64,000 bases of DNA, taken from assembly GCA_000002445.1 (NCBI GenBank), contig CP000071.1, positions 1,056,001-1,120,000 of the forward strand, in the 5' to 3' direction. A program made the position numbers and the translations under genes. The stretch comes from Trypanosoma brucei (lineage: Eukaryota). Positions within the stretch are counted from its first letter, which is position 1; the number at the start of each line of letters is the position of its first letter. The notes below the pieces were generated by a model. The model ran no database searches. It was given only the letters and a program-made list of their open reading frames with translations, and was not told the origin of the DNA. Of the stretch, positions 12,931 to 55,866 are shown piece after piece.

Positions 12931-15717
12931 TTATTCTTCCACTTCCCCTTCATACTCCCCATCACCCTCTAGTGCCTCTTCATCACCCTCTGTTCCATCA
13001 TCCTCAATCTCATTATCCAGTTCCTCCTCTTCTAGAACCGTGTAAAACTCCTTCGCTCTTGGACACGCATGGACGGAGGCATTGTTGAAGTCCAACAATC
13101 GGATATTATCCAGCCGTGTGCTACGACTAAGAGCCACATACGCCTGACCAGGAGAAAAGAAGCGATGGATTGCCACTTCCACGTGCGAAATTGTCAAACC
13201 TTGCGCCTTGTGAACCGTCATTGCCCATGCTTGGCGCAGGGGAAGTTGTGTACGCGTGGCAACGGGTTGATCCCCCATGTACCACTGATGCGAACTGGGT
13301 GATATGAAGGCGTAGACATGCTTTGGGAGACGTTTACTACCATTTGCGAACCCGCCATCTTCAACCGCACCACTGTCGGAGGATGTGTGGTTTCCCTCCC
13401 GTAGGTCCAACCTAACAATAGGTAAGCGCGTGAGACGAACGTGTTGCGGTGCAATGCCTCCCAAATACATCTCTAGGGGATGCACGGCATTCGCAGACTC
13501 AGTTTTGCCAAGACCAACAAGACGCAAGATGTCTCGGCAATGTGTGTTTCCATATACGCAGCCATAACTTGCGTCTTCAGGGCGGCGAATACCACGCTCA
13601 CGCAGGTAATAGAAAAGAGACTGACCAAGGGCGGTGTCGACACAGCGGAACGCATCTTGTAATGTAGGCAACCCTGCGCGCTCCAACAATTCTTGTCCAC
13701 GGGCCGAGGGGAAATGGCGTTCACGCGGAGCCCGAAGAACAAGTTCAACAAGCTCAAGCGGATGGAGAAAACCGACCACCTCACCAACGGACCCATTGAC
13801 TAGACCAAGTCGAAGCGAAATGTTCTGAAGTACCATCACTCGCGTACCAACCTTTAGTGCAAGATCTGTTGGAAGTGTGCTGTCCTCAAACCGTACCCAA
13901 GGTTGCGATGGTTGTGTACCTGTAGTTGTCTCTTCAGTCGTTTCAGGTTCAGTTTCATGAGTGCTGTAGGCATCATAAGCTCGGTACACTTGAAGGGGAC
14001 GCATTGTGTCTTCCTCCGTCACAGAATTAGCACCATTACTGCTGCCAGTCTGTTGTGAGGAACCGTCGTTTGGTGATGGATAAATTGGAAGGCCCTTGGG
14101 TTCGAGCGCGGCAAAATACTTTGCATTACGCATTTCCACCTCCTTGTTTGTTGCGCAGAGTCGCACGTGCCGATCTTTCTCTGCCGCTGCTGGCGTTGTC
14201 TCTGCGTCGGTAAGTGGTAGCACACCATCATTTCCGGCATCCTCATCCTTCTTTTTGCGTGACTTCGCGCTGGATTTCGAAGCAACAGTACGAGATAACA
14301 ATAGTTCGTATGACTCAGGTGACAGTGATCCGACTCGAAGCTCGTCAAGGACCTGCTGAAACGCCAAATCATCGTGCTGCCTGAATTTCTTATGAAGAAT
14401 GACGGTTATTAGATTCAACGAGGTCCATGTACTCGTCTCAAAGCAGTACTGTAGTTTGGACGGCGCCGGTGTCCCATCAGTTGGATCACCACCTTCTTGC
14501 GCTTCGGCATTTTCCTCCGTCTTTTGTTGTGGCTTATTGCGCGGTGGAATAGGCGGTAACTGCAGGAAGTCCCCACATAGAATTACCTGAATACCACCGA
14601 ATGGTTCATTACGACGGCGTATAGCGCGTGCAATCACATCTAACTTATCAAGTAGCAGGGGATCCATCATTGAAATCTCGTCGATGATGAGTGTTTGGCA
14701 GTAACGCCATCGACCAGCCGCACGCCTACTGCGGCGAACCCACTTTAATAACTGACGCGCATCCCCATCTCCAAACTTCACGCCGGCAAAACTATTCACA
14801 GTTGAGCCGCGAACATTGAGAGCGGCTACTCCAGTAGTTGCCGTCACATATACGCAGCGGCGTTTGTTGTGCCGAAGTTGGTAAACGATCTCGCGGATGA
14901 GAAGTGACTTTCCAGAGCCTGCCCCACCCGTTATGAATAAGTTGCGCCCCTTTAATGCAAGCCTTAGTGCGCGCTGTTGCTCTGGACTGAGTGATGTTAA
15001 AATGGGAAGTTGGCTATCAGCGTCAGCATCACTGAAGTGGGTTTGTCCCTCGCTAGCCCCCTCTGCTTTTCCCTGAGCCGATATCTTCGCCTCAGTACCC
15101 ACCGGTTGTGTGCGTTCAGCAACCCCTAACTTCGAGAGATATTCTTTATCATCCGTTACTTCAGTAGGTTCAGCGGCTGCTTTTGCTCGGAGGCGCTTCT
15201 TTTTCTCCTCCTCGCGCCGCAGAGCTTCCTCCTTCAACAGCTGCATCAGTTGCTTACTTTCCTCATCCACAAGTTTCTCATCGTCATCATCATCTATGGC
15301 AACGTCAGAAGCACCTCCTTTTCCCGGAGCACTTCCTTCTATACCATTGGCTCTTCTTGCAGTGTTAAACGCACTCGCTCCCACGGTTCGACCACTTCGC
15401 CGCTGCTTCGATTTGGTTACGGCAGCAGCTTTTGTTTTTCCACCTCCGACTTTCCGTCGCCTCGTCATGTGTTCCTCAGAAATCCGCGGCGGCTCAAGTG
15501 GCGGTGGTGGGGAGTCGATTTTAATGGCCGCTCGCCCGCGTTTCTCCACCGGTTCCGCCTTTGCAGTGCGGGAGCGGGCCGCAATGCCACTCACCAGCGG
15601 CGGTTCATTTGGTTGAGTGCTGCGGTTGAGGCGATTGCCGCATGTGGTGAAGTCAACGCGTTGAATCCGCAGTGCCACACGTGAGGGACGCCATACGGCG
15701 CTTAGACGGGAGAGCAT
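12931..15717 (-). CDS. PIF5: PIF1-family 5'-3' DNA helicase with N-terminal mitochondrial presequence and about 230-aa basic low-complexity extension (928 aa); I recall this as PIF5-like
   Basis: Walker A LFITGGAGSGKSLLIREIV. PIF1 signature blocks: RLCATNKEVEMRNAKYF, VMVLQNISLRLGLVNGSVGEVVGF, and C-terminal MTVHKAQGLTISHVEVAI. The N-terminus MLSRLSAVWRPSRVALRIQR is an Arg-rich amphipathic presequence. The acidic C-terminal tail is EEEELDNEIEDDGTEGDEE. The PIF5 name is from memory of kinetoplastid PIF1 paralogues, not from a search. Confidence 0.85.
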   Translation of the reverse strand: MLSRLSAVWRPSRVALRIQRVDFTTCGNRLNRSTQPNEPPLVSGIAARSRTAKAEPVEKRGRAAIKIDSPPPPLEPPRISEEHMTRRRKVGGGKTKAAAVTKSKQRRSGRTVGASAFNTARRANGIEGSAPGKGGASDVAIDDDDDEKLVDEESKQLMQLLKEEALRREEEKKKRLRAKAAAEPTEVTDDKEYLSKLGVAERTQPVGTEAKISAQGKAEGASEGQTHFSDADADSQLPILTSLSPEQQRALRLALKGRNLFITGGAGSGKSLLIREIVYQLRHNKRRCVYVTATTGVAALNVRGSTVNSFAGVKFGDGDARQLLKWVRRSRRAAGRWRYCQTLIIDEISMMDPLLLDKLDVIARAIRRRNEPFGGIQVILCGDFLQLPPIPPRNKPQQKTEENAEAQEGGDPTDGTPAPSKLQYCFETSTWTSLNLITVILHKKFRQHDDLAFQQVLDELRVGSLSPESYELLLSRTVASKSSAKSRKKKDEDAGNDGVLPLTDAETTPAAAEKDRHVRLCATNKEVEMRNAKYFAALEPKGLPIYPSPNDGSSQQTGSSNGANSVTEEDTMRPLQVYRAYDAYSTHETEPETTEETTTGTQPSQPWVRFEDSTLPTDLALKVGTRVMVLQNISLRLGLVNGSVGEVVGFLHPLELVELVLRAPRERHFPSARGQELLERAGLPTLQDAFRCVDTALGQSLFYYLRERGIRRPEDASYGCVYGNTHCRDILRLVGLGKTESANAVHPLEMYLGGIAPQHVRLTRLPIVRLDLREGNHTSSDSGAVEDGGFANGSKRLPKHVYAFISPSSHQWYMGDQPVATRTQLPLRQAWAMTVHKAQGLTISHVEVAIHRFFSPGQAYVALSRSTRLDNIRLLDFNNASVHACPRAKEFYTVLEEEELDNEIEDDGTEGDEEALEGDGEYEGEVEE

Positions 15718-19176: not shown

Positions 19177-19923
19177 TTACGGTATAAACACACGAGTTGT
19201 TTTTCTGTATGGTTGGTTACAGTAGGGGCATGCCTTCTTTTGTAATTGACGGAGGCAACCATCACATGTGCAAAGGTGACGGCAGGGTAGAAACAGTACA
19301 AGGGACTGCCTCTCTAAACAAATGCAACACTGTCCGTTGTTAGTTTCCTGAGCCCTGTTAGAAACATATGAGGCTGGAGCCATGGTGGATATATTTGGAA
19401 AACGATCAGAATTTGTTTGCCCAGCGTGTGGCGGGGCCGTATGAGCCGCCTGCTCATTTTCTGCGTCGCGCTGAGCCACGTGGTATTCCTGACGTATGTA
19501 ATTATTGGTGTTTCCACGTGGGCTGGTAAACGGTGGTGGTAGCACTAAACGAATGTCGCTCTGTTGATGACCATCATTCTGCTGTTGACGCTGCTGAGGA
19601 CGCGGTGATGTGAGAGGCGGTAAAACCTCCTGCACCGCCAGTTCACCCCTGAAACTTCTACGCCAGCGCAGTTGCGGTTGCGGTTGCCGATTCTGGTGCC
19701 TATTGTCCGGGTGACGTGCCGTATGGGGCATTTCTGATGAATTCGGTTGGAAGAGCAAATGACCCCCCAAGAAGACGGGTTGGATGCCTGTTGTTATTTT
19801 AAGCAACTGCAAGCGATGCCGCCTGTTGGAGGAAAAAAGCGTTCTACCATTACCACCACCAGCTGGAAGGACAAGATTCGTGGTCATGAGAAAGTTGCGG
19901 AATGTTATATCCACACTAAACAC
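19177..19923 (-). CDS. C-terminal C3HC4 RING-finger protein (putative E3 ubiquitin ligase), Q/P/R-rich N-terminal region, up to 248 aa
   Basis: C-terminal CCICLERQSLVLFLPCRHLCTCDGCLRQLQKKACPYCNQ is a RING-HC with the spacing C-x2-C-x(9-39)-C-x(1-3)-H-x(2-3)-C-x2-C-x(4-48)-C-x2-C. The N-terminal half is low-complexity (PQQRQQQNDGHQQ), so the start codon is uncertain. Confidence 0.65.
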   Translation of the reverse strand: MFSVDITFRNFLMTTNLVLPAGGGNGRTLFSSNRRHRLQLLKITTGIQPVFLGGHLLFQPNSSEMPHTARHPDNRHQNRQPQPQLRWRRSFRGELAVQEVLPPLTSPRPQQRQQQNDGHQQSDIRLVLPPPFTSPRGNTNNYIRQEYHVAQRDAENEQAAHTAPPHAGQTNSDRFPNISTMAPASYVSNRAQETNNGQCCICLERQSLVLFLPCRHLCTCDGCLRQLQKKACPYCNQPYRKTTRVFIP

Positions 19924-20640: not shown

Positions 20641-22110
20641 TCATTGCAAGCTGTGTAACATCGGTGCGCGTTTCAGCCGTGCAGCAACCTCCTCCTGTTG
20701 CCGCGCACGGTGCACGCGCTGTTCAAACGACTTGACCGTGGAAAGAAAATTTGGAAGCTCACGCACTGCGACGTCGGCTCTGTCGCGGTGAAGGAAGAGA
20801 TGGGACTGAATTTGCGCTACACTCAGTTTGCCAGGCAGCAGCTGCAAGGCGAACGCTTCGTGGAGAGACTCCGGTGCCTCGGGAAAGAATTTACAAAATA
20901 GTTTCCGTGCTTGCTCACGCGATATCAGACCAATTTCGACCTTCAAATCACAGCGACCGGGCCGGATGAGGGCTTCATCCAGTCGCTCCACGTGATTTGT
21001 TGTCATAAACACGATTCGACCTTCCTGAGCGGCGACACCATCGAGTGCGTTGAGCAGTCCACTCATCGTAATGTGACTATCGGCGCTAAATGCCCGATCA
21101 ATGTCTTCCAGTAGCACAATAGAGCGGATTGGGGCGGTGTTAAGCAACTGGACGAGTGTGTCGTCGCTCAATCCGCGGCCAGAGAGACTCAAGGGACAAA
21201 TGGAAAGTCGTAACTCGCCAGCAAGCGCCATCACCACGCTGCTCTTGCCGCAACCAGGAGGACCGTGAAGCAGGTAACCGCGGCGATACGGAACGCCTAA
21301 ATCTTCATAATACCTGCTTGACTGAAGAAACAGTTTCGCATCCTCCAAAAGCATGTCCCCAATCCCATCATTAAGCACTACAGAATTCAGCGGGCGCCGA
21401 CGGCGTGGCTCTTGCCGCACCCAACGACCACCAGCGTTCTGATAAATGACCGTATGATCGCTGTTTCGCATGGAGGTGAGCTCCCGCGCCTCCTCGAGAA
21501 TCTCACGCATAAAAGTCGAGGATAGACCCAATGTAGTCAGTTCCATTGTCTCAAGAACGTCAGTGCCCATTGCCTGGGTTTCCACACGGCGCCGTTGCAG
21601 TACAATTGGTCGGTGTTTGTACCAGAACCAGTGCCGAATGTTGGTACAGGGGGCATACATACACTCATGCGATGACTCGTCGTTGGAGTATATGGTGGTG
21701 TTGCGCGTGGTGACGTTCACCTGTTGAACCTGGAACGCGGGCTTGCTCGAGAGCCACCGCACCATCCACCCGTAGCTTTCGTCCTGACTTGTCACCTCCA
21801 TTGAAATGACGAACCGCCGGCGCATGACGGATTTGAACATTGTGGACACTGAACGTGTGGCGGCACCAGTGAATGTCAGCAAATAAAGCCCGACGCCCGC
21901 ACTAAAAAACGGATTTTGCAGCAGGTTCCCCAATGTTCGACTAAGGACGCCACCTTCCCCCCTCCAGCGCTCCGGTACAAGAGCGGCAAGTTCAGCTAAT
22001 GCCACATCGGCACTCACTGCGGTGGAGGAGGAAGAACCGCACACGGCGGGGTTACTTCCATCGGCGAGAGCAGCAAGATTCATAGCGAGACGACAGCAGA
22101 TACAACGCAA
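20641..22110 (-). CDS. BCS1: BCS1-like mitochondrial AAA ATPase (489 aa)
   Basis: Walker A [12 protein letters not shown]. The BCS1-specific block [31 protein letters not shown] is very close to BCS1L [26 protein letters not shown]. The N-terminal BCS1_N-like region carries a single TM segment ([16 protein letters not shown]). Confidence 0.9.
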   Translation of the reverse strand: [489 protein letters not shown]

Positions 22111-22978: not shown

Positions 22979-24937
22979 CTATGACGGGACAGGAGAGGCT
23001 TCTGATGCACGAGAGGGACTTTCCACAGTAGTGTTCATAAAGGCAAGTCGGTTTGCCACAATGTTCGATGCCATATGCCGCCGCTTAAGGGCACTCAAAA
23101 GGACGTCCCGCAGCGGTGGTGTTGCAACCTTCTCCCAGTCCACTTCGTCCCTCACTCCCCGATGCTCTTCCGTTGTCCCATCTTCATTACCCTCCTGGCA
23201 AGTTGGCGCAGTGTAATCGTCATCCATGTCTTGGTCATCGCTATACAAGCCATACGACGCGGCACGCTTCCGTCGTGGCCATGTTGGTGCAAAGAATGCC
23301 GGGAGCCACATGTGCGCAAAGGCTGCCACCAAAAACGGCATTGTGTCAAAAAATCGGCAGAACTCTTCATAACTTATGTGTGAGCGGCGCATCATGTTCA
23401 ACGGTATGACTGTTTTCTGGTGGGGTAACAAGGATGCTGCTTTAACACTCTTCCTATTCTTCCTCCCCTTTAATTGCGAGCGGATGTACGCCTGCTCTTC
23501 CTCTTGATGTAACACATCCAAGGAATCCCTTAGTGCCTTCACGATACTCGGCGACAATACGCTTTCCGGCTCCTCACAGGACTCCCGGCCGTCCCGCCGT
23601 AACTGAGTCAGGGCAGACTTGTGGATGTAATCGTCGGTCTCCAAAACACTAAAACAAAGTTTCCGAATCACATCCTTCAACTCCGCACCATTGACTAAGG
23701 CATCAAAACCAGCAAGCAGTTCACGGACATGGGCTTCTGGAGATTTCTCTCGCTGACTCGTCTCATTCACCACCGGTGCGGGGATGTTAACACCCGGAAT
23801 AGGAAATGTCTGGTTACCGCGATTACCGGCAAGCACCGGACTCATTTTGGCAACTGACATGTTCGATGAAGAGGTTTGCCCTGCTCCACTGCCCTCTATT
23901 GTGCGGTGTAATGACGCGTGGTGGAGCTGAGCTGCCTTTAGGGGGGAGAGACTTCGCACTCCACTACTAGCAGCAGCAGTGTTATGTGACGTTTCAAGAC
24001 GACCCACTGCGTTGACTCCAGACTCACTCATGGAAGATGATGGGTGGGCAACTGAGAAAAAATTCTCGGCAGCCTCATCATCCCTTACTTCGAACGGTGC
24101 TTGCCTGAGCATATCGAGAAATGCATCGAGTGTTACAATCCCACTGGAATCCGCCACGGTCAGTAGTGCTGACTGCAGAAGCCGGAGGTTCGGTGCGGGT
24201 TTTCCTTCTTCCACCACCTCTTGCTTCTTTTTCTTTTTCTTGCCACCGCGGTTCTTCCTACTTGGGGTTCCCAGCGACTGCGATCGTGCCCCGGTTCTCG
24301 TTGGGGAATTCCGCGCTGCTGCTGCTGCAGTGGCTGCCGCAACTCTTGACTGCCGCTCTTCTTCCTCCAGCTTTCGCACTAGCGCCTCCGGATTTTGCTT
24401 GTAGTAGGCTGCTATGAAGTAATCGTTAATGTCCTGCACGACCCGTCTATGGGCGAACTTGGGCAGGGATTCCAGTATCATTTTTTCCTTCGCCTTCGTC
24501 ATTGGTCCCTGTAGCACTGGTAGAGCAACCGCTTTCCCCTGTTGTTCATTAAAGCGCGAATTCGGTGGAGGAAGTCGAAATAAAGTTTTATAGTAGTCGG
24601 TCATGGAGATACGACGCTCCATCATAATCTTCCGCTGCTCTCGTTCCTTCGTCTGCTGCAGGCTCTCCCGTCGGCGCACATGCCAAAGCACACGGTCCTC
24701 TACCGCGGTGTTTCGCAGCCGTTCCACATTTGGACAGGGAGAAATGTTTGACGCCACCACACGCTCTGCCGTCGATGACATCCGCGCAGTGGAAGCCTTC
24801 GCATCCATCGAGAGAGAGGTTGCACTCCTCGTTCCAAATGTGGTTGTTGACATCTTCTCGCCTGAAAATATGCTTCCCGTACGCCCCTTGCTCTGGCGGC
24901 TTCCCTCAAGTGCATCGCTCACACCCACAGAACTCAT
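22979..24937 (-). CDS. hypothetical protein, 652 aa, Ser/Ala-rich with a poly-Lys stretch
   Basis: Long uninterrupted minus-strand ORF in the same orientation as its neighbours. Contains RGGKKKKKKQEVVEEGK, a poly-Ala run AAATAAAAARNS and a C-terminal acidic stretch YSDDQDMDDDY. No recognisable catalytic motifs. Confidence 0.6.
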   Translation of the reverse strand: MSSVGVSDALEGSRQSKGRTGSIFSGEKMSTTTFGTRSATSLSMDAKASTARMSSTAERVVASNISPCPNVERLRNTAVEDRVLWHVRRRESLQQTKEREQRKIMMERRISMTDYYKTLFRLPPPNSRFNEQQGKAVALPVLQGPMTKAKEKMILESLPKFAHRRVVQDINDYFIAAYYKQNPEALVRKLEEEERQSRVAAATAAAAARNSPTRTGARSQSLGTPSRKNRGGKKKKKKQEVVEEGKPAPNLRLLQSALLTVADSSGIVTLDAFLDMLRQAPFEVRDDEAAENFFSVAHPSSSMSESGVNAVGRLETSHNTAAASSGVRSLSPLKAAQLHHASLHRTIEGSGAGQTSSSNMSVAKMSPVLAGNRGNQTFPIPGVNIPAPVVNETSQREKSPEAHVRELLAGFDALVNGAELKDVIRKLCFSVLETDDYIHKSALTQLRRDGRESCEEPESVLSPSIVKALRDSLDVLHQEEEQAYIRSQLKGRKNRKSVKAASLLPHQKTVIPLNMMRRSHISYEEFCRFFDTMPFLVAAFAHMWLPAFFAPTWPRRKRAASYGLYSDDQDMDDDYTAPTCQEGNEDGTTEEHRGVRDEVDWEKVATPPLRDVLLSALKRRHMASNIVANRLAFMNTTVESPSRASEASPVPS

Positions 24938-26669: not shown

Positions 26670-28031
26670 CTAAAGGTAAACCACGGCCTCGCATGGGTAA
26701 CACTCGTTCACTGAATCGTAGCCTAGAGCGCACAACTCAACTTTATCAATGAATACAGGGCTCTCACATAGCGAAACATTTGCAAAACGCCGTAGAACCT
26801 CCGATGCATTAAACGGTAAATTTTTTCCGCCGCTTTGTTGTTTCCCTTCACCCGTACGCCACTTCGTGTTCATCAGCGTGACGTGAAGTAACTTACTCTC
26901 CGACACACGTGGGTCATCACATATGAGTTCCCCAAAACTGCTGTGAACGATGTCCTGCAATGCTCTAACCGTCGCGGTGGATTCCTCGTCTGCCAATCCC
27001 ATATACAACACATTTGCCTTCTGCACATGTTGACCTCGGCTAGTCATCACGTGCAGTCCACCTAAGCGAATGGGAATTCCCACACTGTCATCAGGCCCTG
27101 CTTTACCTTTATGTAGGTGTTGCTGTTGCTTCCACCCATAGATCTGGTCTTGCAGTACCTGCATACATTCTACAGCCAGTGCAACATCTTCACATGTCGG
27201 AAGGGATAACATGAGGAGGGTTAAATGCGTGCGTGGTGCACTAGTAAATATCTCCTCCGTTACACCGTTTGCAGGATCAACACAACACTGTTTCATCTCC
27301 CACAAAAGTGCCTCCGCCCTTTCGCCAAACACTTTTACCTTTCCGATGGGTAATGCAATGAAGTGAGTATACGGTTTCTTGTAGAAATGCTTTCCGACCC
27401 TCCCACCGAACGTCGAACCAACGTTTTTTTCACCGCTTTCGTGGGTTTCCACAGCATATTTCCTCTTGGAGGCGCTTCCCTCCCCTACCACCTCACGAGA
27501 ATCGGGAGCGCTGTCAACCACTTCTGCACTCGCAGACTCATTTCCGCGTGCATGACCTTCAGTGGCAAATATTCTGTAGCAACGATTCTGAGGGAAACGG
27601 ACAACACGAATGGAGGAATCATGCGATATGCCGTCATCTCTGCAATTATGAACAGGAACGACGTGCATTCCACTGGTTCCACTGACATTTTTCTTATCAA
27701 CACTGGCACCAACAGACGCCATAACAGACGGGGACACGGCAAGACAGTAACCGCAAATAAGACGGGCGTCATAACTAACCTTACCGCAAGAGTTGCAGGT
27801 CCAACCACACCCATTTGTTAGGCACTTGCAGCTCCTTTTTCCGTTGCATTCCTTCTCATTTCTTTTATTAGTGGATTCATTTGAACCGTAACGCGCCGCT
27901 AATCGGTTTCGGGCCATATTGTCGAGTGCCTTCTCACGGTGCACCCACTCCACCGCAGCCGCGCGCTCAGTGACATCGGTAGAAATCGACGAAAGAGCCC
28001 TCCACGACATATCCTCCGACTTATTATACAA
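26670..28031 (-). CDS. RanBP2-type zinc finger + 2H-phosphoesterase (LigT/AKAP18/ASCC1-like) domain protein, 453 aa
   Basis: Mid-protein GCGWTCNSCGKVSYDARLICGYC fits the ZnF_RBZ pattern W-x-C-x2-C-x3-N-x6-C-x2-C. The C-terminal half has two H-x-T-x tetrapeptides about 90 aa apart (…PRTHLTLLMLSL… and …SKLLHVTLMNTKW…), which is diagnostic of the 2H phosphoesterase superfamily, within a region with a matching beta/alpha hydrophobic pattern (HFIALPIGKVKVFGERAEALLWEM). Confidence 0.65.
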   Translation of the reverse strand: MYNKSEDMSWRALSSISTDVTERAAAVEWVHREKALDNMARNRLAARYGSNESTNKRNEKECNGKRSCKCLTNGCGWTCNSCGKVSYDARLICGYCLAVSPSVMASVGASVDKKNVSGTSGMHVVPVHNCRDDGISHDSSIRVVRFPQNRCYRIFATEGHARGNESASAEVVDSAPDSREVVGEGSASKRKYAVETHESGEKNVGSTFGGRVGKHFYKKPYTHFIALPIGKVKVFGERAEALLWEMKQCCVDPANGVTEEIFTSAPRTHLTLLMLSLPTCEDVALAVECMQVLQDQIYGWKQQQHLHKGKAGPDDSVGIPIRLGGLHVMTSRGQHVQKANVLYMGLADEESTATVRALQDIVHSSFGELICDDPRVSESKLLHVTLMNTKWRTGEGKQQSGGKNLPFNASEVLRRFANVSLCESPVFIDKVELCALGYDSVNECYPCEAVVYL

Positions 28032-29283: not shown

Positions 29284-31652
29284 ACACACACACACACACA
29301 CACGTATGCCATTGAAGAGCGTAGGAAGGAAGAGGTTGCGATGGAAGGGGCGTGTCACTAAACATGTAAAAAAAAATGGTCACCGCAGAAAAAAAAAACG
29401 ATATAGAACTCCCATTTGTAAGCCGCAATGATGGATCGATTCAGATATTGGTGATGGAAGGGTTTCGATATGGTTCTAATTGGCTGTGGGTTCCCGCCGT
29501 CTGGGAGAATCATTAGAGGGGGCATGAACATCCTCCGCCTTCTTTGTAATAGCTTTGCCGTTTTCGTCAAGAACATCACATATACGTGCCGCAGGTATCA
29601 GTAAAAACACAAGAGGAATGCTGATGAGTGGAGTGCCAAAGTGACCAAGAAGTAGAAGCCACTTCACATTACTGAAGTCGCATGGACCCACCGTAATGTC
29701 TGATTGCACATTCCATACGTATTCCATCAAAAGCCATCCAAGTGTGTTGGAAACGGAACGGCCAAAATGCGCACATCCTGCAAGTACCGCATACACCATA
29801 CTTTCAGACCCACGGGGACAGAGCCTCGAAATGAGCATTACAGTTGGCATGAAGTGCATCATGTAGCACACCTGCTGTATAATTTGGTCACCAAGAACGA
29901 ATACAACGTGATCGCTAACATACGGACGGTTCCATCGCTCCACAATGATTATATCAAAGATACTCGAAACTATCTCAATCAAAGTTGTTACGATGAATGT
30001 TAGGCGATAGCTGCGCTTTGAGAATACGTATCTGAATAACGTCACACCAATAACACCACCCATAGTCCCAATCACGTTACCCACAGTGTTGTAGTAAAAG
30101 TATGAAAAGTTAGGACCACCAGGGAAACAATCGGGGGTCGCCATGAAGACATTGTCCATTGCGCCACGAAGTTGGATGTACGTGACCCTCGAGATGAATG
30201 TGAACATATTTGCCTTCGCGATCACAAGTGGAAGGGCAACGAAACCGAGTCCACAGAGTGTAAATGACGCCACAACACTGGTTATTAGCAGCTGCAACCT
30301 TGTGCCAAGGACTGTCACGAGAACCATACCGATGGCGCCAAGTGTGAGAAGCATGCAGTAAAACACAACCTTCTTGTTGCGAGCAAACACTTCTCGATTC
30401 ACTTCAAAGGCACCACAGCAACAAGGTAGTATCCGTGCTCCGCCCTCACCCACTTCCTCGGTATCCGATGGATTGTCCAGTGAGCCACTTGTTGCTTCGC
30501 TCCCCTGTAACCTCACGGCGTCGGCTTCATGCTCCAGCTTCTTTTCGCGAATAATCTTCAGGTCGTACGCACGTTCCTCTCGGTTCTTCCGTTCACCATA
30601 CCAATTCAGTATGAAGAATATCGTCGGCACCAACTGCATCCCAGCAGAGATAAACACAGCCACTCGCTGCAACCTCTTATCGGTAAGTGGTCCTACAATG
30701 GAGGACGCAACAAGGGAGCCAACCAAAAGGCACCACCAAACCCAACTCACAAGCGATGGGCCCGCCAATGGGACGCGGCGAATCAAGCGACTGTAATGCC
30801 CTTGTGTGAGGATATCAAGGTTAGCAACTGTGAAGGTAATGACAAAAACAAGGAAGCCAGCCACCGGTACATACGACAACTCTCCGGGCAGTGAACCGTA
30901 CACAATAGCGAGGGTGGAACCCACCACACAGGATAGAGCGAGGTACCATCGCTTCGTGTACCCAAATAACGCAAAGAGGTCACTGAACATAGCTGCAAAC
31001 GGCTTCACTGCGTAACCCAACGACGACATACCACCCATCAGTTGGTAAAGCTTTGCATCAGCACCAAAGGTGTAGGTAAACATTGGAAAAAGTGAGGATC
31101 GAATGATGTTGTCAGCAATTCCTTTGCCGAAGAGCTCGCAGAAACCAAGGGCGAAAACAAACTTCGGTCCGAACGCTTCCACAGCAGTGCCGAGTACGGG
31201 AATGCTCCACACGCATGGCAGCTTTCGGAACAAGGCCCTTGCGTCAGGGTGTACAGGACGAGCATCCATTGTTTCCTCTGCAGAGAGTTTGTGAGTTGTA
31301 CACTCAGCTTCGTGAGCTTGGGGTGCGGAATGTTGAGGTGGTTGGTCCTGGCATGCGTTCGGTGACGTGGTCATTGCTGGTACTCGAATATGTTCCCACA
31401 AGTATGAATGTTTGTCACTATCGTTGCTTTGGTTTCGACTTTATCTCCAGAACAAAATGGAAGGGTTACCTTTTCGATACAGCGGGTAGAGGACAACATA
31501 GTGGCAGCACAAGAGAGCGGTTGAAGGAAAGAAATCGCAATGAACATTGAGAACGGAATCAGGCCGTCAAATAGCGCGTGAAACCACTGCAGCACTTGCT
31601 GGTACCGTACGTCAACTGGATACAAAGCGCTTTGCGGTATTGTATAATGTTA
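29284..31652 (-). repeat. tandem segmental repeat unit 1 (transporter gene plus about 190 bp of 3' flank and about 250 bp of 5' flank)
   Basis: Near-identical to 32550..35016 and 36923..39210. The 3' homology to the other units starts at the (CA)n tract at 29284. The 5' homology to unit 2 ends at …tattgtataatgtta (31652). Confidence 0.85.
29476..31401 (-). CDS. multi-pass membrane transporter, 641 aa, tandem copy 1 (I recall folate/biopterin transporter BT1 family)
   Basis: 641-aa ORF with about 12 hydrophobic segments and a large central hydrophilic loop (REKKLEHEADAVRLQGSEATSG…). 94-97% identical to the ORFs at 32840..34765 and 37216..39141. The family assignment rests on recollection that trypanosomes carry a three-gene folate/pteridine transporter cluster of this size. 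No diagnostic motif was verified. Confidence 0.8.
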   Translation of the reverse strand: MWEHIRVPAMTTSPNACQDQPPQHSAPQAHEAECTTHKLSAEETMDARPVHPDARALFRKLPCVWSIPVLGTAVEAFGPKFVFALGFCELFGKGIADNIIRSSLFPMFTYTFGADAKLYQLMGGMSSLGYAVKPFAAMFSDLFALFGYTKRWYLALSCVVGSTLAIVYGSLPGELSYVPVAGFLVFVITFTVANLDILTQGHYSRLIRRVPLAGPSLVSWVWWCLLVGSLVASSIVGPLTDKRLQRVAVFISAGMQLVPTIFFILNWYGERKNREERAYDLKIIREKKLEHEADAVRLQGSEATSGSLDNPSDTEEVGEGGARILPCCCGAFEVNREVFARNKKVVFYCMLLTLGAIGMVLVTVLGTRLQLLITSVVASFTLCGLGFVALPLVIAKANMFTFISRVTYIQLRGAMDNVFMATPDCFPGGPNFSYFYYNTVGNVIGTMGGVIGVTLFRYVFSKRSYRLTFIVTTLIEIVSSIFDIIIVERWNRPYVSDHVVFVLGDQIIQQVCYMMHFMPTVMLISRLCPRGSESMVYAVLAGCAHFGRSVSNTLGWLLMEYVWNVQSDITVGPCDFSNVKWLLLLGHFGTPLISIPLVFLLIPAARICDVLDENGKAITKKAEDVHAPSNDSPRRREPTAN

Positions 31653-40056: not shown

Positions 40057-42966
40057 CTACTTTTTCGACTCTGGCGTAACAACAGCTTGTTTCAGGGACT
40101 CCATAAACTTGACAATGGAGGCATCGTCAGTATATATAACGTCCGACAAATCTGACACGCCGTTTCCACCACGAGCACCACTGTGGTGTGTTGTTGTGGG
40201 ATTCATCCTCGTTTTGATGTGCCGCGCTTCCGATCCGTTAGCGTCTGTTCGCGAGAACCTCGGATACGGGTAACGCATGTCAAGCAGCATGGTGGCCTCG
40301 TTTTCTACTGTTTCAAGCAGCTGTGCGAAGTGGGCGTATTCGGGGTTATCTTGGTACCTCGCTTGTATCCAAGCAAATATAACAGTTCCCCACATAATAT
40401 GAATGTTGAAGAAAGCATCCATCAAGAGGATGTTGTCTGGTCGCAGACTGCAGCTATCAAGTGGAACCGCTGTTGCTGTTGGTGTTTCCATATCGTACGA
40501 GTGCAGCGTCGGTTGGATCATTAAAACACAATTATCTACAGATTCCCGCATTAGCCAGTGTCGCTTGAATGTCGACTCATCGGGTGATATATTAAGGACC
40601 ATGAAGTACTCTGAACGACGCAAGTTAAACACAAACGAAGGAAATAAGGTGAAGCACGGACGAAGTCGCAGCGACTCCGGGGAGCCAGGTGTGAACGAAC
40701 CGTAGCGTCGCACAAACCGCACAAGCACTGTGTCCAACCATCTTTTTGCATCGTTCCACTTGCTTGGATGCTTTTCCAATATGCTTACTGTCATGCGGGC
40801 GAGTACTGTGGCCGCACATGTCTGATCGAATGTGTCGTATTCAGAAAAATACTGCGGGTTAGCCGTGCTCACTCCATCAGCTGTTATTGTAACGGGGGCA
40901 ATGGGAAGTGCCACACTTGTCACGCGGATACGGGATTCGCCGAGTGGGGTGGTGAAATGCGTCACAAATTGTATGAAACGGTTTTGCTGCTGTTGCGGCA
41001 TACCATCCACTTTATTTAGTGTCGCTGTGTCAAAAACCACAGTGTATGTGGTTCCCTGGTCTATAGTACTAACACGCCAGTCTGTTGTCCCACCGACTCC
41101 AATTTCAATGGGCGAGATGGAAGCGCGGTGGGCTTTCGTTCCCGATGTTTTTTCCGCAGCCACACAAGGCCCTAAAACTCCAGAGACGAGTGTGTCGGCA
41201 GATGTGTGCACATGGAGTTTCACACCAAAACCGCTGTTAGCCACTAGAGCACCGGGGGCAGAACCATCAATATCACCAGCACTGCTAATACCACTGCTTT
41301 CGACGCCTGGGGGGCGAAGGTCACAGAGGTCAAAATACCGCTGAAGGGAAATAGTGAACATTTGGTGGTCGAATGTGTCACCACAGATGAAGGTACCACC
41401 CGTTTGGTCCACTGCCTGTCGCATTTCCAGTATGCCTATTTGATCAAAACTCTCGGCAAATACGCTAAGGCTTGCGTTCACATCTAAAAGACGTAGTTGT
41501 ATTTCGTTGTAGAATTTGAAGGCAGCTTCGTAGTAGGGTGTCTCACCCTCGATAATATCACGATGAAACCTCATCATGCTCTCCTTTTCAATGCTAACGA
41601 CGGTGCCCGGACCACGAGTACAAGGACCTCCAGTAAAGAGCAGCACCCGACCCGCCTTCCGTACGGGTGCCACACCAGCTGGCGCAGCGCCCGACATCTC
41701 CTTCTTTACAGGGACTTCGGGCAGGGCTTCAAGCAGTCGCACAGCGGCACTCACCGCCGTCCCAGTTGCTCTCAGAGGACGTTTATTAACGGGTGTCACT
41801 CCATCGTGGCACTGAAGTCCTTCAATGCTTGTTGTTAGTGTAAATTCACACTCCTCCAGTGGTACCAGGAAACGACCGCGAGCTGGGAGGCCATCATTCA
41901 GCTGCAACATATTCCCGAGCTCCGCAGTGGTATAGGCTCGATCGCCCCGTATGCTGTAACATCGTGACAGGGACGAACCGCTCAGATCCCACACAGATAC
42001 GCGAGCCCCAAATGAAACGAGCCCAATGAGCGATTGTGGGGGAAGCCAGTTGAGGCAGCGTTGGATGTTACACTTAAGGGCCTCTAGCTCTTCGACTGCG
42101 ATGCAAGTGTCAATAATGAACACAAACGTCGGAGAAAAGCCGACACCTCTCGTTGCCTGAGCTGTTGTGGGTTGCTCTAGTGGTAAAATGTACTCCACAG
42201 TGTCATTGTGTAGTGCAGGGTGTTCAGGTCTGTAGTGGGGTGGCAGCTGGTTACGGCGTTGGCACGAAAAACACACCCAAAACTTCCCCTCTTCCCTATA
42301 GCAGTGGTGGCTCCAGAACGCCCCACAGTTTTGGCATTGTTGACCACATGCCGTGGGATCGCCAATAACCATACGAGATGCATCGATGGGAAACAAAGGA
42401 GTGTACATGCAAGCGAGGGGGATAACCATCTCTGGAAGTGTGAGGGCTGCAGCAGAGGGCGCTTCCTGCTTTCCGTCACGGGTATGGTTTGGGTATGTGC
42501 TCCAAGTCCACCTCAAACCATTCTCATCAGTGCATTCCGCTGCTGGTGGTGGTGGCGGTACGTGGGAAGCAGTTGTAGCGGATGCGCCACTACCCGTCGG
42601 TGCGACCGCTCCGCCAACATGGGAAGCAGCAGCCGCTCCTACTGCCGTTGGTGGGGCAAACATGTTGGTGTCATTAGTGTTGGCAGGGTTATGTATACCT
42701 TGCTGAGGTGCGTATTGCTGCTGCCACGGCGTCTGGTTGGCATTATAATTGTAATTATTCATTTGCTGCTGCAACTGTGTGTACTGGTTCGAATACGTAC
42801 CCTCAGCGGTACCGCCCCCGTATTGAGCATTGTGGCCCTCCATGAGAGTAGCTGGGTCCTGATACGACACATAACCCTGCTTAACATCCTGGGTAGGATA
42901 CAACCCTTGATAATCCGCTTGCCGCGGGTAACCTCCGTAGGATTGCTGTGGTACGTGTCCTTGCAT
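40057..42966 (-). CDS. SEC23: COPII coat subunit Sec23 with about 150-aa Q/N/Y/P-rich N-terminal extension (969 aa as longest ORF)
   Basis: Sec23 N-terminal signature GLRWTWSTYPN (compare GVRFTWNVFPS), IPLACMYTPLF, and zinc finger CQNCGAFWSHHCYREEGKFWVCFSCQRRNQLPPHY (compare W-C-x-I-C-x-S-R-N-x-LPPQY). These are followed by trunk, beta-barrel, helical and gelsolin-like regions. Residues 1-150 are prion-like (QQSYGGYPRQADYQGLYPTQ…QMNNYNYNANQTPWQQQYAPQQG). In-frame Mets at positions 42, 69 and 102 are possible alternative starts. Confidence 0.8.
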   Translation of the reverse strand: MQGHVPQQSYGGYPRQADYQGLYPTQDVKQGYVSYQDPATLMEGHNAQYGGGTAEGTYSNQYTQLQQQMNNYNYNANQTPWQQQYAPQQGIHNPANTNDTNMFAPPTAVGAAAASHVGGAVAPTGSGASATTASHVPPPPPAAECTDENGLRWTWSTYPNHTRDGKQEAPSAAALTLPEMVIPLACMYTPLFPIDASRMVIGDPTACGQQCQNCGAFWSHHCYREEGKFWVCFSCQRRNQLPPHYRPEHPALHNDTVEYILPLEQPTTAQATRGVGFSPTFVFIIDTCIAVEELEALKCNIQRCLNWLPPQSLIGLVSFGARVSVWDLSGSSLSRCYSIRGDRAYTTAELGNMLQLNDGLPARGRFLVPLEECEFTLTTSIEGLQCHDGVTPVNKRPLRATGTAVSAAVRLLEALPEVPVKKEMSGAAPAGVAPVRKAGRVLLFTGGPCTRGPGTVVSIEKESMMRFHRDIIEGETPYYEAAFKFYNEIQLRLLDVNASLSVFAESFDQIGILEMRQAVDQTGGTFICGDTFDHQMFTISLQRYFDLCDLRPPGVESSGISSAGDIDGSAPGALVANSGFGVKLHVHTSADTLVSGVLGPCVAAEKTSGTKAHRASISPIEIGVGGTTDWRVSTIDQGTTYTVVFDTATLNKVDGMPQQQQNRFIQFVTHFTTPLGESRIRVTSVALPIAPVTITADGVSTANPQYFSEYDTFDQTCAATVLARMTVSILEKHPSKWNDAKRWLDTVLVRFVRRYGSFTPGSPESLRLRPCFTLFPSFVFNLRRSEYFMVLNISPDESTFKRHWLMRESVDNCVLMIQPTLHSYDMETPTATAVPLDSCSLRPDNILLMDAFFNIHIMWGTVIFAWIQARYQDNPEYAHFAQLLETVENEATMLLDMRYPYPRFSRTDANGSEARHIKTRMNPTTTHHSGARGGNGVSDLSDVIYTDDASIVKFMESLKQAVVTPESKK

Positions 42967-44891: not shown

Positions 44892-46829
44892 TTAATCACG
44901 ACTTATAGCGAAACGTAACAACTCATCTCCTGACGAAACTACGACTACGTCCTGATCGTTCGAGCTCCCATTTCGTTTCGTGCCAACCACCTCACCGCCA
45001 CCGAACTCCACCACACGTTGCAGCATCGTTTTCACCACTCCTTCCGGCATTGTCAAAAGAAACCGTTGACATCTTAACGGTGGCGGGAAGTACCGGAGTC
45101 CGCCCTCAACTTCCTCATCCAACCAGAAACCGGCACCGAGTGAATCAAACACATATGACGGCTGAACTAACCATTTTGAGGACACAACACCGCACAACGC
45201 TTTCACGCTCCGTGGGGGACCACGGAGAACAATATGTGTTGTGTTCAGCGGAAGAATTTCATCTACCTTGTTATCAACAAGGACCGCGCGCTGACCGAGT
45301 TTCTGGATCGCCTCCATCACACTGTTCCGTTCCTTTTCTGTTAGACTCGTCGTAATAAAGTAACGTGGCTGCACTGCCCCTCGCTTCGGATCGACAGGAG
45401 AAGGGGAACGAGTGGACCCTCCAACAGCAGAGGAGGCACCGCTCACTGGGCGAAACGGTCGGCGGAGTCCACGACTACTTGGAGTTGCCATCAGTGCAGA
45501 ACCGCTCGATGATGCGACGGGGGAAAGACCTCCTGTGCGTTGACGGAGCGCTACCGCGCCAGATCTCGGCTGCATTTGAACACTTTCACTTCGTTGTTGC
45601 TGGAACTGTTGCCGACTGTTGCTCACAGCTTCCACTAGAGTGCACGCAGCCGATGTATAAGAGGTTTGTGCACGCAAGATGTTGGAACCAACCGCAGGTT
45701 GATACCCCATGCCGTCGAGGCACGTCTGTTGTGCCTCCGCCGTCGGCGAATTGAGTTCCTTCTTCACCACAGGAGAACCTTTTTTGACGTATTCATCCGT
45801 TTCGGAAATCCTGTCGGCTACAGTATAGCTGGGGGTGCGGGGATTCCGCTTCTTGAGGGGTCTGGTGGGAGTCGTGGAAACAGTGCCCTCGCGCTCTCGT
45901 TTCACTGAGTGACTGTTTTTAGTGGTGACTGGTGCGGACCTGTCGTCGCTGGTGGTGGCACTCATCCACGCATTCCCATCGGGGTGTGGAAGTGTGTACG
46001 GTTGATTCGGTCCACTACCAGATGATGTTGTGGTTAATCCTCTGGTGTGATTTACAGTATTAGAAAGCGGTTGCCCTGAGGTGGTAGATACGGAATTACC
46101 CCCGCCAACATTATTGGCACAAACAGCCGTCTGGTAGTTCCTAGCGGCAGTTACCAACTCCTGTGCACTTACCAACTTCCGCACTGCGGCTTCATGCGTC
46201 TGTGTGAGGGATTTTATCTTTAATTCATAGTTTTTTTTCATCTCATGAACCTCTAAGTTATGTTGAGTTGCGTGTTTCTCTAATGCGCTCTCTTTCTCCT
46301 CAACAACCCCCTGTAGATGTCCTATCGTTCGCTTAAGTCTCGCCACTTCCTCTTCAAGATCAAGGACACGCTGCGTATCGACGACGGGTTCACTCCTCTT
46401 CCCTTGTCTCCGGTGTGATTGCTTCTCTAGTTCTTTGTAGCGAGCCATGAGCCGCTCATAACGCTCAACAGAAACGACGCCATATTTCCCTACATCGCTT
46501 TTGCTGTCACCACGCGACTGTAAGTTACTGCTTTCAGACGCAGTTGCCACTGGTGAGGGCCAGCGAGTTTGCTGACGTGGGGGTTCAACATTTAAGCCAC
46601 CTGCCATGAGAGAAGATGCTGCTCCCATATCTGTTGTAGCCGTATTTTGCAGTGTGCGCGGCTGGGGGCATAACGCAGCAATTTGTTCTAGACCCACCCC
46701 TCCAGGGCGGGCACCAGTGGCACCATCACCATGTCCAGGTGACAGAAGTGCTAAAATTCCCTGCATCTGAGTAATCAGCTGGGGATTAGATGCGAGTTGC
46801 TGTAGCACAGACAGTGGATTGTCTCCCAT
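44892..46829 (-). CDS. coiled-coil + C-terminal BRCT-domain protein, hypothetical, 645 aa
   Basis: Central heptad-repeat region (ERYERLMARYKELEKQSHRR … LEEEVARLKRTIGHLQGVVEEKESALEKHATQHNLEVHEMKKNYELKIKSLTQTHEAAVRKL). The C-terminal about 95 aa match the BRCT fold pattern: PRYFITTSLTEKERNSVMEAIQKLGQRAVLVDNKVDEILPLNTTHIVLRGPPRSVKALCGVVSSKWLVQPSYVFDSLGAGFWLDEEVE (F-x-x-S/TG…GG…THLV…K…IV…W…S…G…L-E-Y). Confidence 0.7.
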   Translation of the reverse strand: MGDNPLSVLQQLASNPQLITQMQGILALLSPGHGDGATGARPGGVGLEQIAALCPQPRTLQNTATTDMGAASSLMAGGLNVEPPRQQTRWPSPVATASESSNLQSRGDSKSDVGKYGVVSVERYERLMARYKELEKQSHRRQGKRSEPVVDTQRVLDLEEEVARLKRTIGHLQGVVEEKESALEKHATQHNLEVHEMKKNYELKIKSLTQTHEAAVRKLVSAQELVTAARNYQTAVCANNVGGGNSVSTTSGQPLSNTVNHTRGLTTTSSGSGPNQPYTLPHPDGNAWMSATTSDDRSAPVTTKNSHSVKREREGTVSTTPTRPLKKRNPRTPSYTVADRISETDEYVKKGSPVVKKELNSPTAEAQQTCLDGMGYQPAVGSNILRAQTSYTSAACTLVEAVSNSRQQFQQQRSESVQMQPRSGAVALRQRTGGLSPVASSSGSALMATPSSRGLRRPFRPVSGASSAVGGSTRSPSPVDPKRGAVQPRYFITTSLTEKERNSVMEAIQKLGQRAVLVDNKVDEILPLNTTHIVLRGPPRSVKALCGVVSSKWLVQPSYVFDSLGAGFWLDEEVEGGLRYFPPPLRCQRFLLTMPEGVVKTMLQRVVEFGGGEVVGTKRNGSSNDQDVVVVSSGDELLRFAISRD

Positions 46830-55806: not shown

Positions 55807-55824
55807 ATTTCCTACGGTACCACG

Positions 55825-55826
<2 letters not shown>

Positions 55827-55862
<36 letters not shown>
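55827..55862. repeat. (AT)18 microsatellite 21 nt upstream of the start codon of the 1486-aa hypothetical gene
   Basis: Perfect 36-nt dinucleotide run read directly from the sequence. Confidence 0.95.

Positions 55863-55866
<4 letters not shown>

What the first reader, a model, noticed from the sequence alone, without database searches (positions are those of the whole stretch)
26670..28031. RanBP2-type zinc finger fused to a 2H (LigT/AKAP18/ASCC1-like) phosphoesterase domain
A W-x-C-x2-C…C-x2-C RanBP2 finger (GCGWTCNSCGKVSYDARLICGYC) precedes a C-terminal domain with the two H-x-T-x motifs (HLTL, HVTL) that define 2H phosphoesterases. That family covers RNA 2',3'-cyclic phosphodiesterases, 2'-5' ligases and ASCC1. 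RanBP2 fingers bind ssRNA or ubiquitin. The fusion suggests an RNA-end-processing or RNA-repair enzyme targeted by the finger. A role in kinetoplastid-specific RNA metabolism (tRNA splicing, SL RNA, or mitochondrial editing substrates) is plausible but undescribed from the sequence alone.
Basis: partly seen in the sequence, partly recalled or inferred. Interest (0 to 1): 0.5.

Follow-up and report, generated by a model that had tools for sequence, protein, structure and literature searches.

The report
Trypanosome ASCC1-like enzyme, zinc finger replaces KH
This Trypanosoma brucei gene encodes a relative of the conserved eukaryotic repair and quality-control factor ASCC1 that keeps the two-histidine phosphodiesterase domain and the helicase-docking hairpin, has gained an N-terminal RanBP2-like zinc finger and has lost the usual KH RNA-binding domain.

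Summary
The ORF on the minus strand (true ATG at 28010, stop at 26670, 446 aa) is identical to T. brucei TREU927 XP_847192.1/Q580Y1. It has a W-x-C-x2-C-x10-C-x2-C finger at aa 70-89 and two H-Φ-T-Φ motifs, HLTL at 262 and HVTL at 376.

The C-terminal half is a confident 2H phosphoesterase:
- Pfam AKAP7_NLS, E=1e-20.

The evidence points specifically to ASCC1:
- The family profile hits ASCC1 structures at E=6e-50, against 1e-13 for AKAP7.
- It aligns colinearly (hhalign E=8e-58) with canonical ASCC1 across the N-terminal "beta pin", acidic DEPC patch, KH and 2H domains.

About 30 homologues share an extra N-terminal helix plus finger. Non-trypanosomatid members have a canonical RanBP2 pattern (N-[FY]-x2-R) and keep KH. 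All 16 members with the trypanosomatid-type finger have a diverged finger (S-x-D-x-R) and no KH.

So this is a domain-swapped ASCC1 derivative, not kinetoplastid-specific RNA chemistry. The substrate is unknown, as it is for human ASCC1. It is a new variant of a known kind and of moderate interest.

The parts
26670..28010 (-). Complete CDS (446 aa plus stop), identical to T. brucei TREU927 XP_847192.1 / Q580Y1. Probably Tb927.8.3600 or .3610, inferred from neighbouring genes.
   Evidence: The neighbours are BT1 genes Tb927.8.3620/3630/3650 and the PIF helicase Tb927.8.3560.
27888..27974 (-). Conserved N-terminal helix (aa 13-41, consensus VRxEKxxDxxxxxxLxxxYG). It is specific to the finger-bearing subfamily and its function is unknown.
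   Evidence: Alignment. AF2 helix 13-41 with block pLDDT 77-94. No Pfam match.
27729..27815 (-). RanBP2-like C4 zinc finger (aa 66-94: NGCGWTCNSCGKVSYDARLICGYCLAVSP). This is the diverged trypanosomatid form, S-x-D-x-R in place of N-[FY]-x2-R.
   Evidence: Relatives hit PF00641. PDB profile hits to RanBP2-type fingers. AF2 strands 65-71 and 78-81, pLDDT 74-89.
27561..27632 (-). ASCC1-type 'beta pin' hairpin (aa 127-150: GISHDSSIRVVRFPQNRCYRIFA). R143 and R146 are nearly invariant.
   Evidence: hhalign aligns it to the ASCC1 N-terminal LxxIxGRCYR motif. Canonical ASCC1 N-termini are listed. AF2 strands 134-138 and 144-148. The role of the beta pin is from PMC11214414.
27387..27557 (-). Poorly conserved, predicted-disordered linker (aa 152-208). 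It occupies the position where relatives have the acidic DDEPxC patch and the KH domain. KH is absent here.
   Evidence: pLDDT below 50. Gap over KH in hhalign. KH HMM E=1.5, score -0.1. No Pfam KH hit.
26673..27371 (-). 2H phosphoesterase domain of the ASCC1/AKAP7 type (aa 214-446).
27216..27227 (-). First catalytic motif, H262-L-T-L.
   Evidence: Sequence. H262 is invariant and T264 is present in at least 90% of 33 homologues.
26874..26885 (-). Second catalytic motif, H376-V-T-L.
   Evidence: Sequence. Conserved in 32 of 33 homologues.

Best explanation
[quoted passage not shown] Its parts, in order, are:
- a lineage-specific helix;
- a RanBP2-like zinc finger;
- the conserved ASCC1 beta-pin hairpin;
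- a disordered linker where the KH domain used to be;
- an intact two-histidine phosphodiesterase domain.

Shown here: the domain identities, the colinearity with ASCC1, the conservation of the catalytic His-x-Thr pairs, and the strict co-variation of finger type with KH presence.

Inferred: the beta pin docks the protein on an ASCC3/Slh1-type tandem helicase, as predicted for human ASCC1. The 2H domain acts on an RNA or nucleotide phosphodiester or cyclic-phosphate end that arises during nucleic-acid damage repair or RNA/ribosome quality control. The zinc finger supplies the ligand recognition (most likely single-stranded RNA, possibly ubiquitin) that KH provides in other eukaryotes. The actual substrate is unknown, as it is for human ASCC1.
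For: 2H domain:
- PF10469 scores 75 bits against a cutoff of 24.4.
- Foldseek top hits are 8tuk and 8tly.

ASCC1 rather than AKAP7:
- The single sequence hits only ASCC1 among 2H proteins in the PDB, E=1.2e-4.
- The family profile gives ASCC1 at 6e-50 and 8e-36, AKAP7/18 at 2e-13 to 1e-11, and kinetoplastid mS64 at 4e-10 to 5e-5.

Colinearity:
- hhalign of the 33-sequence family against 24 canonical ASCC1 gives probability 100 and E=7.6e-58. Family columns 98-471 match ASCC1 columns 2-356, covering beta pin, acidic patch, KH and 2H.
- The canonical set is verified as ASCC1 by 8tuk_A at E=1.7e-121.

Beta pin and linker:
- AF2 predicts a hairpin at aa 134-148 and disorder at aa 152-208.

Finger and KH:
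- 14 of 33 homologues carry Pfam KH_1 and 6 hit Zn_ribbon_RanBP.
- A KH HMM built from ASCC1 finds KH in 14 members, all with non-trypanosomatid fingers, and in none of the 16 with the trypanosomatid-type finger.
- Other ASCC1 lineages independently carry an N-terminal CCHC knuckle or a C-terminal RanBP2 finger.

Literature:
Against: - KH, one of the two domains that define ASCC1 architecture, is absent.
- The beta-pin match of the T. brucei sequence alone is weak (E=0.076 against a short HMM in a 33-sequence search). It rests mainly on profile-level colinearity.
- The presence of ASCC3, ASCC2 or TRIP4 orthologues in T. brucei could not be checked with these tools.
- No paper on ASCC in trypanosomes was found.
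- No enzymatic activity has been shown for any ASCC1.
- The taxa of the KH-bearing, finger-bearing homologues are unknown because they come from unnamed metagenome or Logan proteins. The direction 'KH lost in trypanosomatids' is therefore inferred from ASCC1 being KH-bearing elsewhere.
Confidence: 0.72

Rival explanations
1. A free-standing AKAP7-like enzyme (2',5'-oligoadenylate or cyclic-nucleotide phosphodiesterase, or a PKA anchor) with no connection to an ASCC-type complex.
Against: The family profile prefers ASCC1 over AKAP7 by about 36 orders of magnitude in E-value. The ASCC1-specific beta pin and acidic patch align colinearly. The protein ends 2 residues after the 2H domain, so there is no room for the C-terminal RII-binding helix of AKAP7.
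Confidence: 0.1
2. The finger is an NZF-type ubiquitin reader rather than an RNA binder. It would recruit the 2H enzyme to K63-ubiquitylated targets such as collided ribosomes or damaged chromatin, in parallel with or in place of the ASCC2 CUE domain.
For: The family finger profile also hits ubiquitin-binding NZFs: RBCK1/HOIL-1L 8im5 and 3b08, and TAB2 7e62. ASCC and RQT recruitment is K63-ubiquitin driven (background in PMC10076317).
Against: The best finger hits are RNA-binding fingers, FUS at E=0.0085 and RBM10 at 0.017. The canonical members have N-[FY]-x-x-R, as in FUS. The NZF Thr-Phe ... Φ signature (from general knowledge of NZF domains) is not present: the positions read G-[FY] ... 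E, and in T. brucei G-K ... Y.
Confidence: 0.15
3. A catalytically silent scaffold, with the 2H fold used only as a structural module as in the kinetoplastid mitoribosomal protein mS64.
For: T. brucei already uses an AKAP7_NLS-fold protein as a ribosomal protein (6hiv_DQ). No ASCC1 activity has been detected in vitro.
Against: Both H-Φ-T-Φ motifs are conserved in 32 of 33 homologues across large divergence of 21-45% identity. That is hard to explain without selection on the active site. The protein is not mS64, since the profile gives only E=2e-7 to 6hiv_DQ.
Confidence: 0.12
4. A kinetoplastid-specific RNA-end healing enzyme for tRNA splicing, SL RNA or editing.
For: 2H enzymes include the tRNA-splicing CPDases. 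The finger could bind RNA.
Confidence: 0.04

Closest known systems
ASCC1 (human Q8N9N2; structures 8TLY human PDE domain, 8TUK Alvinella KH+PDE)
   Same: Both have an N-terminal beta-pin motif (xLxxIxxRxYR), followed by a C-terminal 2H phosphodiesterase domain with two HxT motifs. ASCC1 is the best sequence, profile and fold match.
   Different: The window protein has no KH domain, only a disordered 57-residue linker in its place. It has an extra ~100-residue N-terminal module (helix plus RanBP2-like zinc finger) that is absent from animal ASCC1. The acidic DEPC patch is degenerate in T. brucei.
Finger-bearing ASCC1-like proteins from unnamed eukaryotic and metagenomic sources (e.g. P0023, P0027, P0031, P0043)
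   Same: Same N-terminal helix, finger at the same position, beta pin and 2H domain. They fall in one family with the Trypanosoma proteins (E 1e-49 to 1e-26 against the Trypanosoma profile).
   Different: They retain a KH_1 domain above the Pfam threshold and a canonical RanBP2 finger, W-x-C-x2-C-x3-N-[FY]-x2-R-x2-C-x2-C.
AKAP7/AKAP18 central domain (2VFK, 5JJ2)
   Different: AKAP7 has no beta pin, KH or finger. It has an RII-binding helix that this protein lacks, and its profile similarity is much weaker.
Kinetoplastid mitoribosomal protein mS64 (6HIV chain DQ, 7ANE, 7AOR)
   Different: It is a distinct paralogue of 268 aa with no finger or beta pin, and it is a structural ribosomal protein.
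RanBP2-type zinc fingers of RNA-binding proteins (FUS 6G99, RBM10 2MXV, RBM5, TAF15)
   Same: Same Cys spacing, the leading Trp and the conserved Arg. They are the best finger-only PDB matches of the family profile.
   Different: T. brucei has Ser for the consensus Asn and lacks the following aromatic residue. It is below the Pfam threshold.

Membership tests
2H phosphoesterase superfamily | Two H-Φ-[ST]-Φ motifs in one domain. | tested here: met
   HLTL at 262 and HVTL at 376, 114 residues apart. They are conserved in 32 of 33 homologues.
2H phosphoesterase superfamily | The 2H fold, with the two HxT motifs brought together in the active-site cleft. | tested here: met
Pfam PF10469 AKAP7_NLS | Score above the gathering threshold over the whole model. 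| tested here: met
   75 bits against 24.4, covering profile positions 1-206 of 208.
ASCC1 | A 2H domain closer to ASCC1 than to other 2H families. | tested here: met
   ASCC1 at 6e-50 against AKAP7 at 2e-13.
ASCC1 | A conserved N-terminal beta-pin hairpin upstream of the catalytic domain. | tested here: met
   Profile-profile colinearity. AF2 hairpin at 134-148. R143 and R146 are nearly invariant. The single-sequence match is weak, E=0.076.
ASCC1 | A type I KH domain with GxxG immediately N-terminal of the 2H domain. | tested here: not met
   No Pfam KH at E up to 10. The ASCC1-derived KH HMM gives E=1.5. hhalign shows a gap there. Residues 152-208 are predicted disordered. KH is absent in all 16 members with the trypanosomatid-type finger.
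ASCC1 | Physical association with ASCC3 (and ASCC2 or TRIP4). | not testable with these tools
   No T. brucei proteome or interaction data are reachable, and no literature was found.
RanBP2-type zinc finger (PROSITE-style consensus W-x-C-x(2,4)-C-x(3)-N-x(6)-C-x(2)-C; Pfam PF00641) | A full consensus pattern including the Asn. | tested here: not met
   T. brucei reads W-T-C-N-S-C-G-K-V-S-...: the spacing is exact but Ser79 replaces Asn. The KH-bearing relatives meet the pattern.
RanBP2-type zinc finger (PROSITE-style consensus W-x-C-x(2,4)-C-x(3)-N-x(6)-C-x(2)-C; Pfam PF00641) | A Pfam score above the gathering threshold (27 bits). | tested here: not met
   T. brucei gives no hit at all. The best relative scores 23.1 bits at E=4.4e-5, and P0072, with a C-terminal finger, scores 26.3 bits. 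Family-profile finger hits in the PDB include eight RanBP2-type fingers, alongside eL43/L37a ribbons and a few others.
AKAP7 | A C-terminal PKA RII-binding helix after the 2H domain. | tested here: not met
   The protein ends 2 residues after the 2H domain.

The most novel reading that the evidence does not exclude
In trypanosomatids the zinc finger has taken over the substrate-selection role of the KH domain in an ASCC1-type enzyme. Alternatively, it reads ubiquitin and makes the enzyme a direct sensor of ubiquitin-marked stalled ribosomes or damaged nucleic acid. This natural domain swap could be used to find the long-sought substrate of the ASCC1 phosphodiesterase.
Probability: 0.2. Interest if true: 0.6.

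Novelty: new variant of a known kind. Interest (0 to 1): 0.4.

Why it matters
ASCC1 is a human disease gene (SMABF2). Its phosphodiesterase substrate is unknown, and its KH-plus-PDE pairing has been described as unique and conserved in "higher" eukaryotes (PMC11214414).

A protist family adds a RanBP2 finger to that architecture, and a trypanosomatid branch then drops KH while keeping the beta pin and catalytic histidines. This points to the beta pin plus the 2H active site as the conserved core. The nucleic-acid-binding module appears to be interchangeable: other lineages add CCHC knuckles or a C-terminal RanBP2 finger.

For trypanosome biology, this gives a concrete, testable annotation to a "conserved hypothetical / AKAP7-like" gene. 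It also predicts an ASCC3-type partner.

Tried and rejected
- Word-indexed homology searches, with the single protein and with two profiles, returned only the same Trypanosoma proteins plus P0040. All wider homologues came from the exhaustive HMMER search.
- A finger-only profile against the PDB was dominated by partial CxxC-knuckle matches to C2H2 fingers and rubredoxins. The only full-length match was FUS at E=0.3, so this was inconclusive. The whole-family profile was more informative.
- NCBIfam gave nothing.
- Protein comparison failed on the two alignments. hhalign with raw FASTA or -glob misbehaved and worked after conversion to a3m.
- The first AF2 model, from 8 sequences, was poor outside the 2H domain (pLDDT 52.6).
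- The afdb50 library was unavailable, so the taxonomy of the KH-bearing homologues could not be obtained from it. Cluster look-ups named only Leptomonas, Phytomonas, Strigomonas and Angomonas.
- Model coordinates were not exposed, so the His-His and Cys4 geometry was not measured.
- Literature searches for ASCC1/ASCC3/2H in trypanosomes, and for the probable gene IDs, found nothing on this gene.
- Considered and rejected: identity with mitoribosomal mS64, a Trl1-type CPDase, and an AKAP7 orthologue.

Full report
**Observation.** The mechanical ORF is 26670..28031 on the minus strand, 453 aa, with a bacterial-code TTG start. In a eukaryote the start is the first ATG, at 28010. The resulting 446-aa protein is identical, residue for residue, to T. 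brucei brucei TREU927 XP_847192.1 / UniProt Q580Y1 on a 2.48-Mb contig. Sources name it "hypothetical protein, conserved" or [quoted passage not shown].

The finger string is at aa 67-89, HLTL at 262-265 and HVTL at 376-379. The finger pattern occurred in 1 of 200,000 shuffles of the protein. Two or more H-Φ-[ST]-Φ motifs occurred in 138 of 20,000 shuffles. Both features are conserved in orthologues.

**Genomic setting.** Every large ORF with a Pfam hit in the window is on the minus strand. This is what one expects of a single trypanosome polycistronic unit, so neighbours say little about function.

The three tandem BT1 genes are the folate transporters Tb927.8.3620/3630/3650, interrupted by the MPN-domain eIF3 subunit Tb927.8.3640. 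The PIF1 helicase is Tb927.8.3560 (PMC5114424, PMC4513851, PMC2743194). This places the gene at about Tb927.8.3600 or .3610. That ID is inferred, not verified.

**The C-terminal domain.** Pfam AKAP7_NLS (PF10469) matches aa 214-444 at E=9.7e-21, 75 bits against a cutoff of 24.4, over profile positions 1-206 of 208.

- then archaeal and bacterial LigT/CPDase, Usb1 and viral 2',5'-PDEs.

I could not measure the distance because model coordinates are not exposed. H262 is invariant, and T264, H376 and T378 are present in at least 90% of 33 homologues that are only 21-45% identical. This argues for a live active site.

**Which 2H family.** With the single sequence, the only 2H hit in the PDB is ASCC1 (8tuk_A, E=1.2e-4). 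With a profile of 33 family members the ranking is:
- ASCC1 8tuk_A 6.4e-50 and 8tly_A 8.4e-36;
- AKAP7/18 2e-13 to 1e-11;
- kinetoplastid mS64 4e-10 to 5e-5.

The match to Alvinella ASCC1 runs through its KH domain as well as the PDE domain.

**The wider family.** The exhaustive profile search found 524 proteins at E up to 0.001. Directly below the Trypanosoma orthologues are about 30 proteins of 400-670 aa, at E 1e-61 to 1e-20. They share these elements in order:
1. an N-terminal helix, VRxEKxxDxxxxxxLxxxYG;
2. a W-x-C-x2-C-x10-C-x2-C-L finger;
3. a G-x-S-x-D ... R-x-Y-R block;
4. an acidic DDEPxC patch;
5. in many members a KH domain;
6. the 2H domain.

Pfam finds KH_1 above threshold in 14 of 33 and Zn_ribbon_RanBP in 6 of 33. 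The best RanBP score is E=4.4e-5 at 23.1 bits, below the 27-bit gathering score. The named members (Leptomonas, Phytomonas, Strigomonas, Angomonas) are trypanosomatids and lack KH. The KH-bearing members come from unnamed metagenome or Logan assemblies, so their taxa are unknown.

**Link to ASCC1 beyond the 2H domain.** Canonical ASCC1-like hits of 340-400 aa begin with MDxLxPxLxxxxGRxYRxN, then an acidic DE(P)C stretch, KH and 2H. A 24-sequence alignment of these is bona fide ASCC1 (8tuk_A E=1.7e-121).

hhalign of the finger-bearing family against this set gives probability 100 and E=7.6e-58. Family columns 98-471 align to ASCC1 columns 2-356. T. brucei IRVVRFPQNRCYRIF pairs with LVWIGKRCYRKP. 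The T. brucei row is gapped across KH.

Chinnam et al. 2024 call this N-terminal hairpin the "beta pin". They report it as highly conserved and supported by SAXS, and they predict that it tethers ASCC1 to the second helicase cassette of ASCC3 (PMC11214414). Both AF2 models place a two-stranded hairpin at aa 134-148.

A caveat applies. The beta-pin HMM alone scores the T. brucei sequence weakly, at E=0.076 in a 33-sequence search. The assignment rests on profile colinearity and conservation (R143 and R146 in at least 90% of members).

**KH loss.** The evidence in T. brucei is:
- no KH in Pfam at E up to 10;
- a KH HMM built from canonical ASCC1 scores -0.1 (E=1.5), while it finds KH in 14 relatives at E of 2e-5 or better;
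- residues 152-208 are predicted disordered and poorly conserved, even among Trypanosoma species.

**The finger.** The spacing matches the RanBP2 consensus exactly.
- KH-bearing relatives read W-x-C-x-E-C-x-[FY]-x-N-[FY]-x-x-R-x-x-C-x-x-C-L, the N-F-x-x-R arrangement seen in FUS.
- All 16 members with the trypanosomatid-type finger (the Trypanosoma species, the four named trypanosomatid genera and several unnamed Logan proteins) read ...C-x-x-x-S-x-D-x-R-x-V-C-x-x-C-L.

Finger type and KH co-vary strictly. Of the 15 Asn-type fingers, 13 are accompanied by KH. The other two, P0033 and P0036, have no detectable KH (E about 0.2). None of the 16 trypanosomatid-type fingers has KH.

The whole-family profile hits the RanBP2-type fingers FUS (0.0085), RBM10 (0.017), RBCK1/HOIL-1L, RBM5, Mdm4, TAF15, Mdm2 and TAB2. 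A block of eL43/L37a zinc ribbons and a few other proteins also appear among the finger-region hits. The E-values are individually marginal but consistent.

The T. brucei finger alone gives no PF00641 hit. Its best match is a sub-threshold zf-ChsH2 zinc ribbon. I conclude that it is a diverged RanBP2-type finger.

Its ligand is not determined. The RNA-binding class is the closer match. The trypanosomatid substitutions remove the Asn and the aromatic residue, which in that class contact RNA. That last point is general knowledge of ZRANB2- and FUS-type fingers and was not tested here.

**Recurrent zinc modules on ASCC1.** P0077 and P0092 carry an N-terminal CCHC knuckle, above the Pfam threshold, ahead of KH and 2H. 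P0072 carries a C-terminal RanBP2 finger at 26.3 bits. Small zinc modules have therefore been added to ASCC1 more than once.

**Mechanism.**
- Shown: domain identities and order, intact catalytic motifs, and ASCC1 colinearity.
- Inferred: the beta pin docks on an ASCC3/Slh1-type helicase; the 2H domain processes an RNA or nucleotide phosphodiester or cyclic-phosphate end during nucleic-acid damage or quality-control reactions; the finger supplies the ligand recognition that KH provides elsewhere.
- Unknown: the substrate. Human and Alvinella ASCC1 did not cleave 2-5A, 2',3'-cGAMP, 2',3'-cAMP or 3',5'-cAMP.

**Membership.** The protein is a member of the 2H superfamily and of PF10469. It descends from, or is orthologous to, ASCC1 by profile and fold evidence. 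It fails the KH criterion of ASCC1 architecture, and partner association is untestable here. I therefore file it as an ASCC1-derived variant rather than a standard ASCC1. It fails the strict RanBP2 pattern and the Pfam threshold, so the finger is "RanBP2-like".

**Novelty and score.** The gene and its AKAP7-like domain are already in databases. I found no paper linking trypanosomes and ASCC1. The main ASCC1 structural paper does not mention zinc fingers or protists.

The new points are the ASCC1 assignment, the finger-bearing subfamily and the KH loss. This is a new variant of a known kind and is useful for ASCC1 biology and trypanosome annotation. It is not a surprise at the level of mechanism. 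Interest is 0.4.

Noticed in passing
window 29476-31401, 32840-34765, 37216-39141 (-); 35084-36247 (-): Three tandem 641-aa BT1-family genes, the T. brucei folate transporters Tb927.8.3620/3630/3650. A JAB/MPN-domain gene (eIF3 subunit, Tb927.8.3640) is inserted between the second and third copies.
   Followed up: partly
PDB 6hiv_DQ / 7ane_ar / 7aor_ar (not in window): Trypanosomatids have a second AKAP7_NLS-fold protein, the mitoribosomal small-subunit protein mS64. The 2H fold has thus been recruited as a ribosomal structural protein in the same organism.
   Followed up: partly
proteins P0077, P0092, P0072: Other ASCC1-like lineages carry different zinc modules. P0077 and P0092 have an N-terminal CCHC knuckle and P0072 has a C-terminal RanBP2-type finger, all with KH plus 2H. 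Zinc fingers seem to have been added to ASCC1 repeatedly.
   Followed up: partly
window 27888-27974 (-), aa 13-41: A conserved N-terminal helix (VRxEKxxDxxxxxxLxxxYG) accompanies the finger in the great majority of family members that have an intact N-terminus. It matches no known family, and its role is unexplained.
   Followed up: no
protein P0020 (EukProt, 3985 aa): A gene model that joins an SNF2-family helicase to a finger-bearing AKAP7_NLS protein of the trypanosomatid type. It is probably a merged gene prediction rather than a real fusion.
   Followed up: no
window 3272-6304, 22979-24937, 44892-46829, 51346-55971, 59380-60474 (-): Large minus-strand ORFs of 364-1541 aa have no Pfam match. 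The 652-aa ORF next to the target is probably Tb927.8.3590, a basic conserved hypothetical reported as depleted on TAP110 overexpression (bioRxiv 10.1101/2020.06.25.171090).
   Followed up: no
window 12931-15717, 19177-19923, 20641-22110, 40057-42966, 56356-58725 (-): Other identifiable genes in the same transcription unit are a PIF1 helicase, a C3HC4 RING protein, a BCS1-like AAA ATPase, a Sec24-like protein and an RNase_T-domain exonuclease. Also present are glycerol-3-phosphate dehydrogenase, a protein kinase, isocitrate/isopropylmalate dehydrogenase and a pterin-4a-carbinolamine dehydratase domain protein.
   Followed up: no
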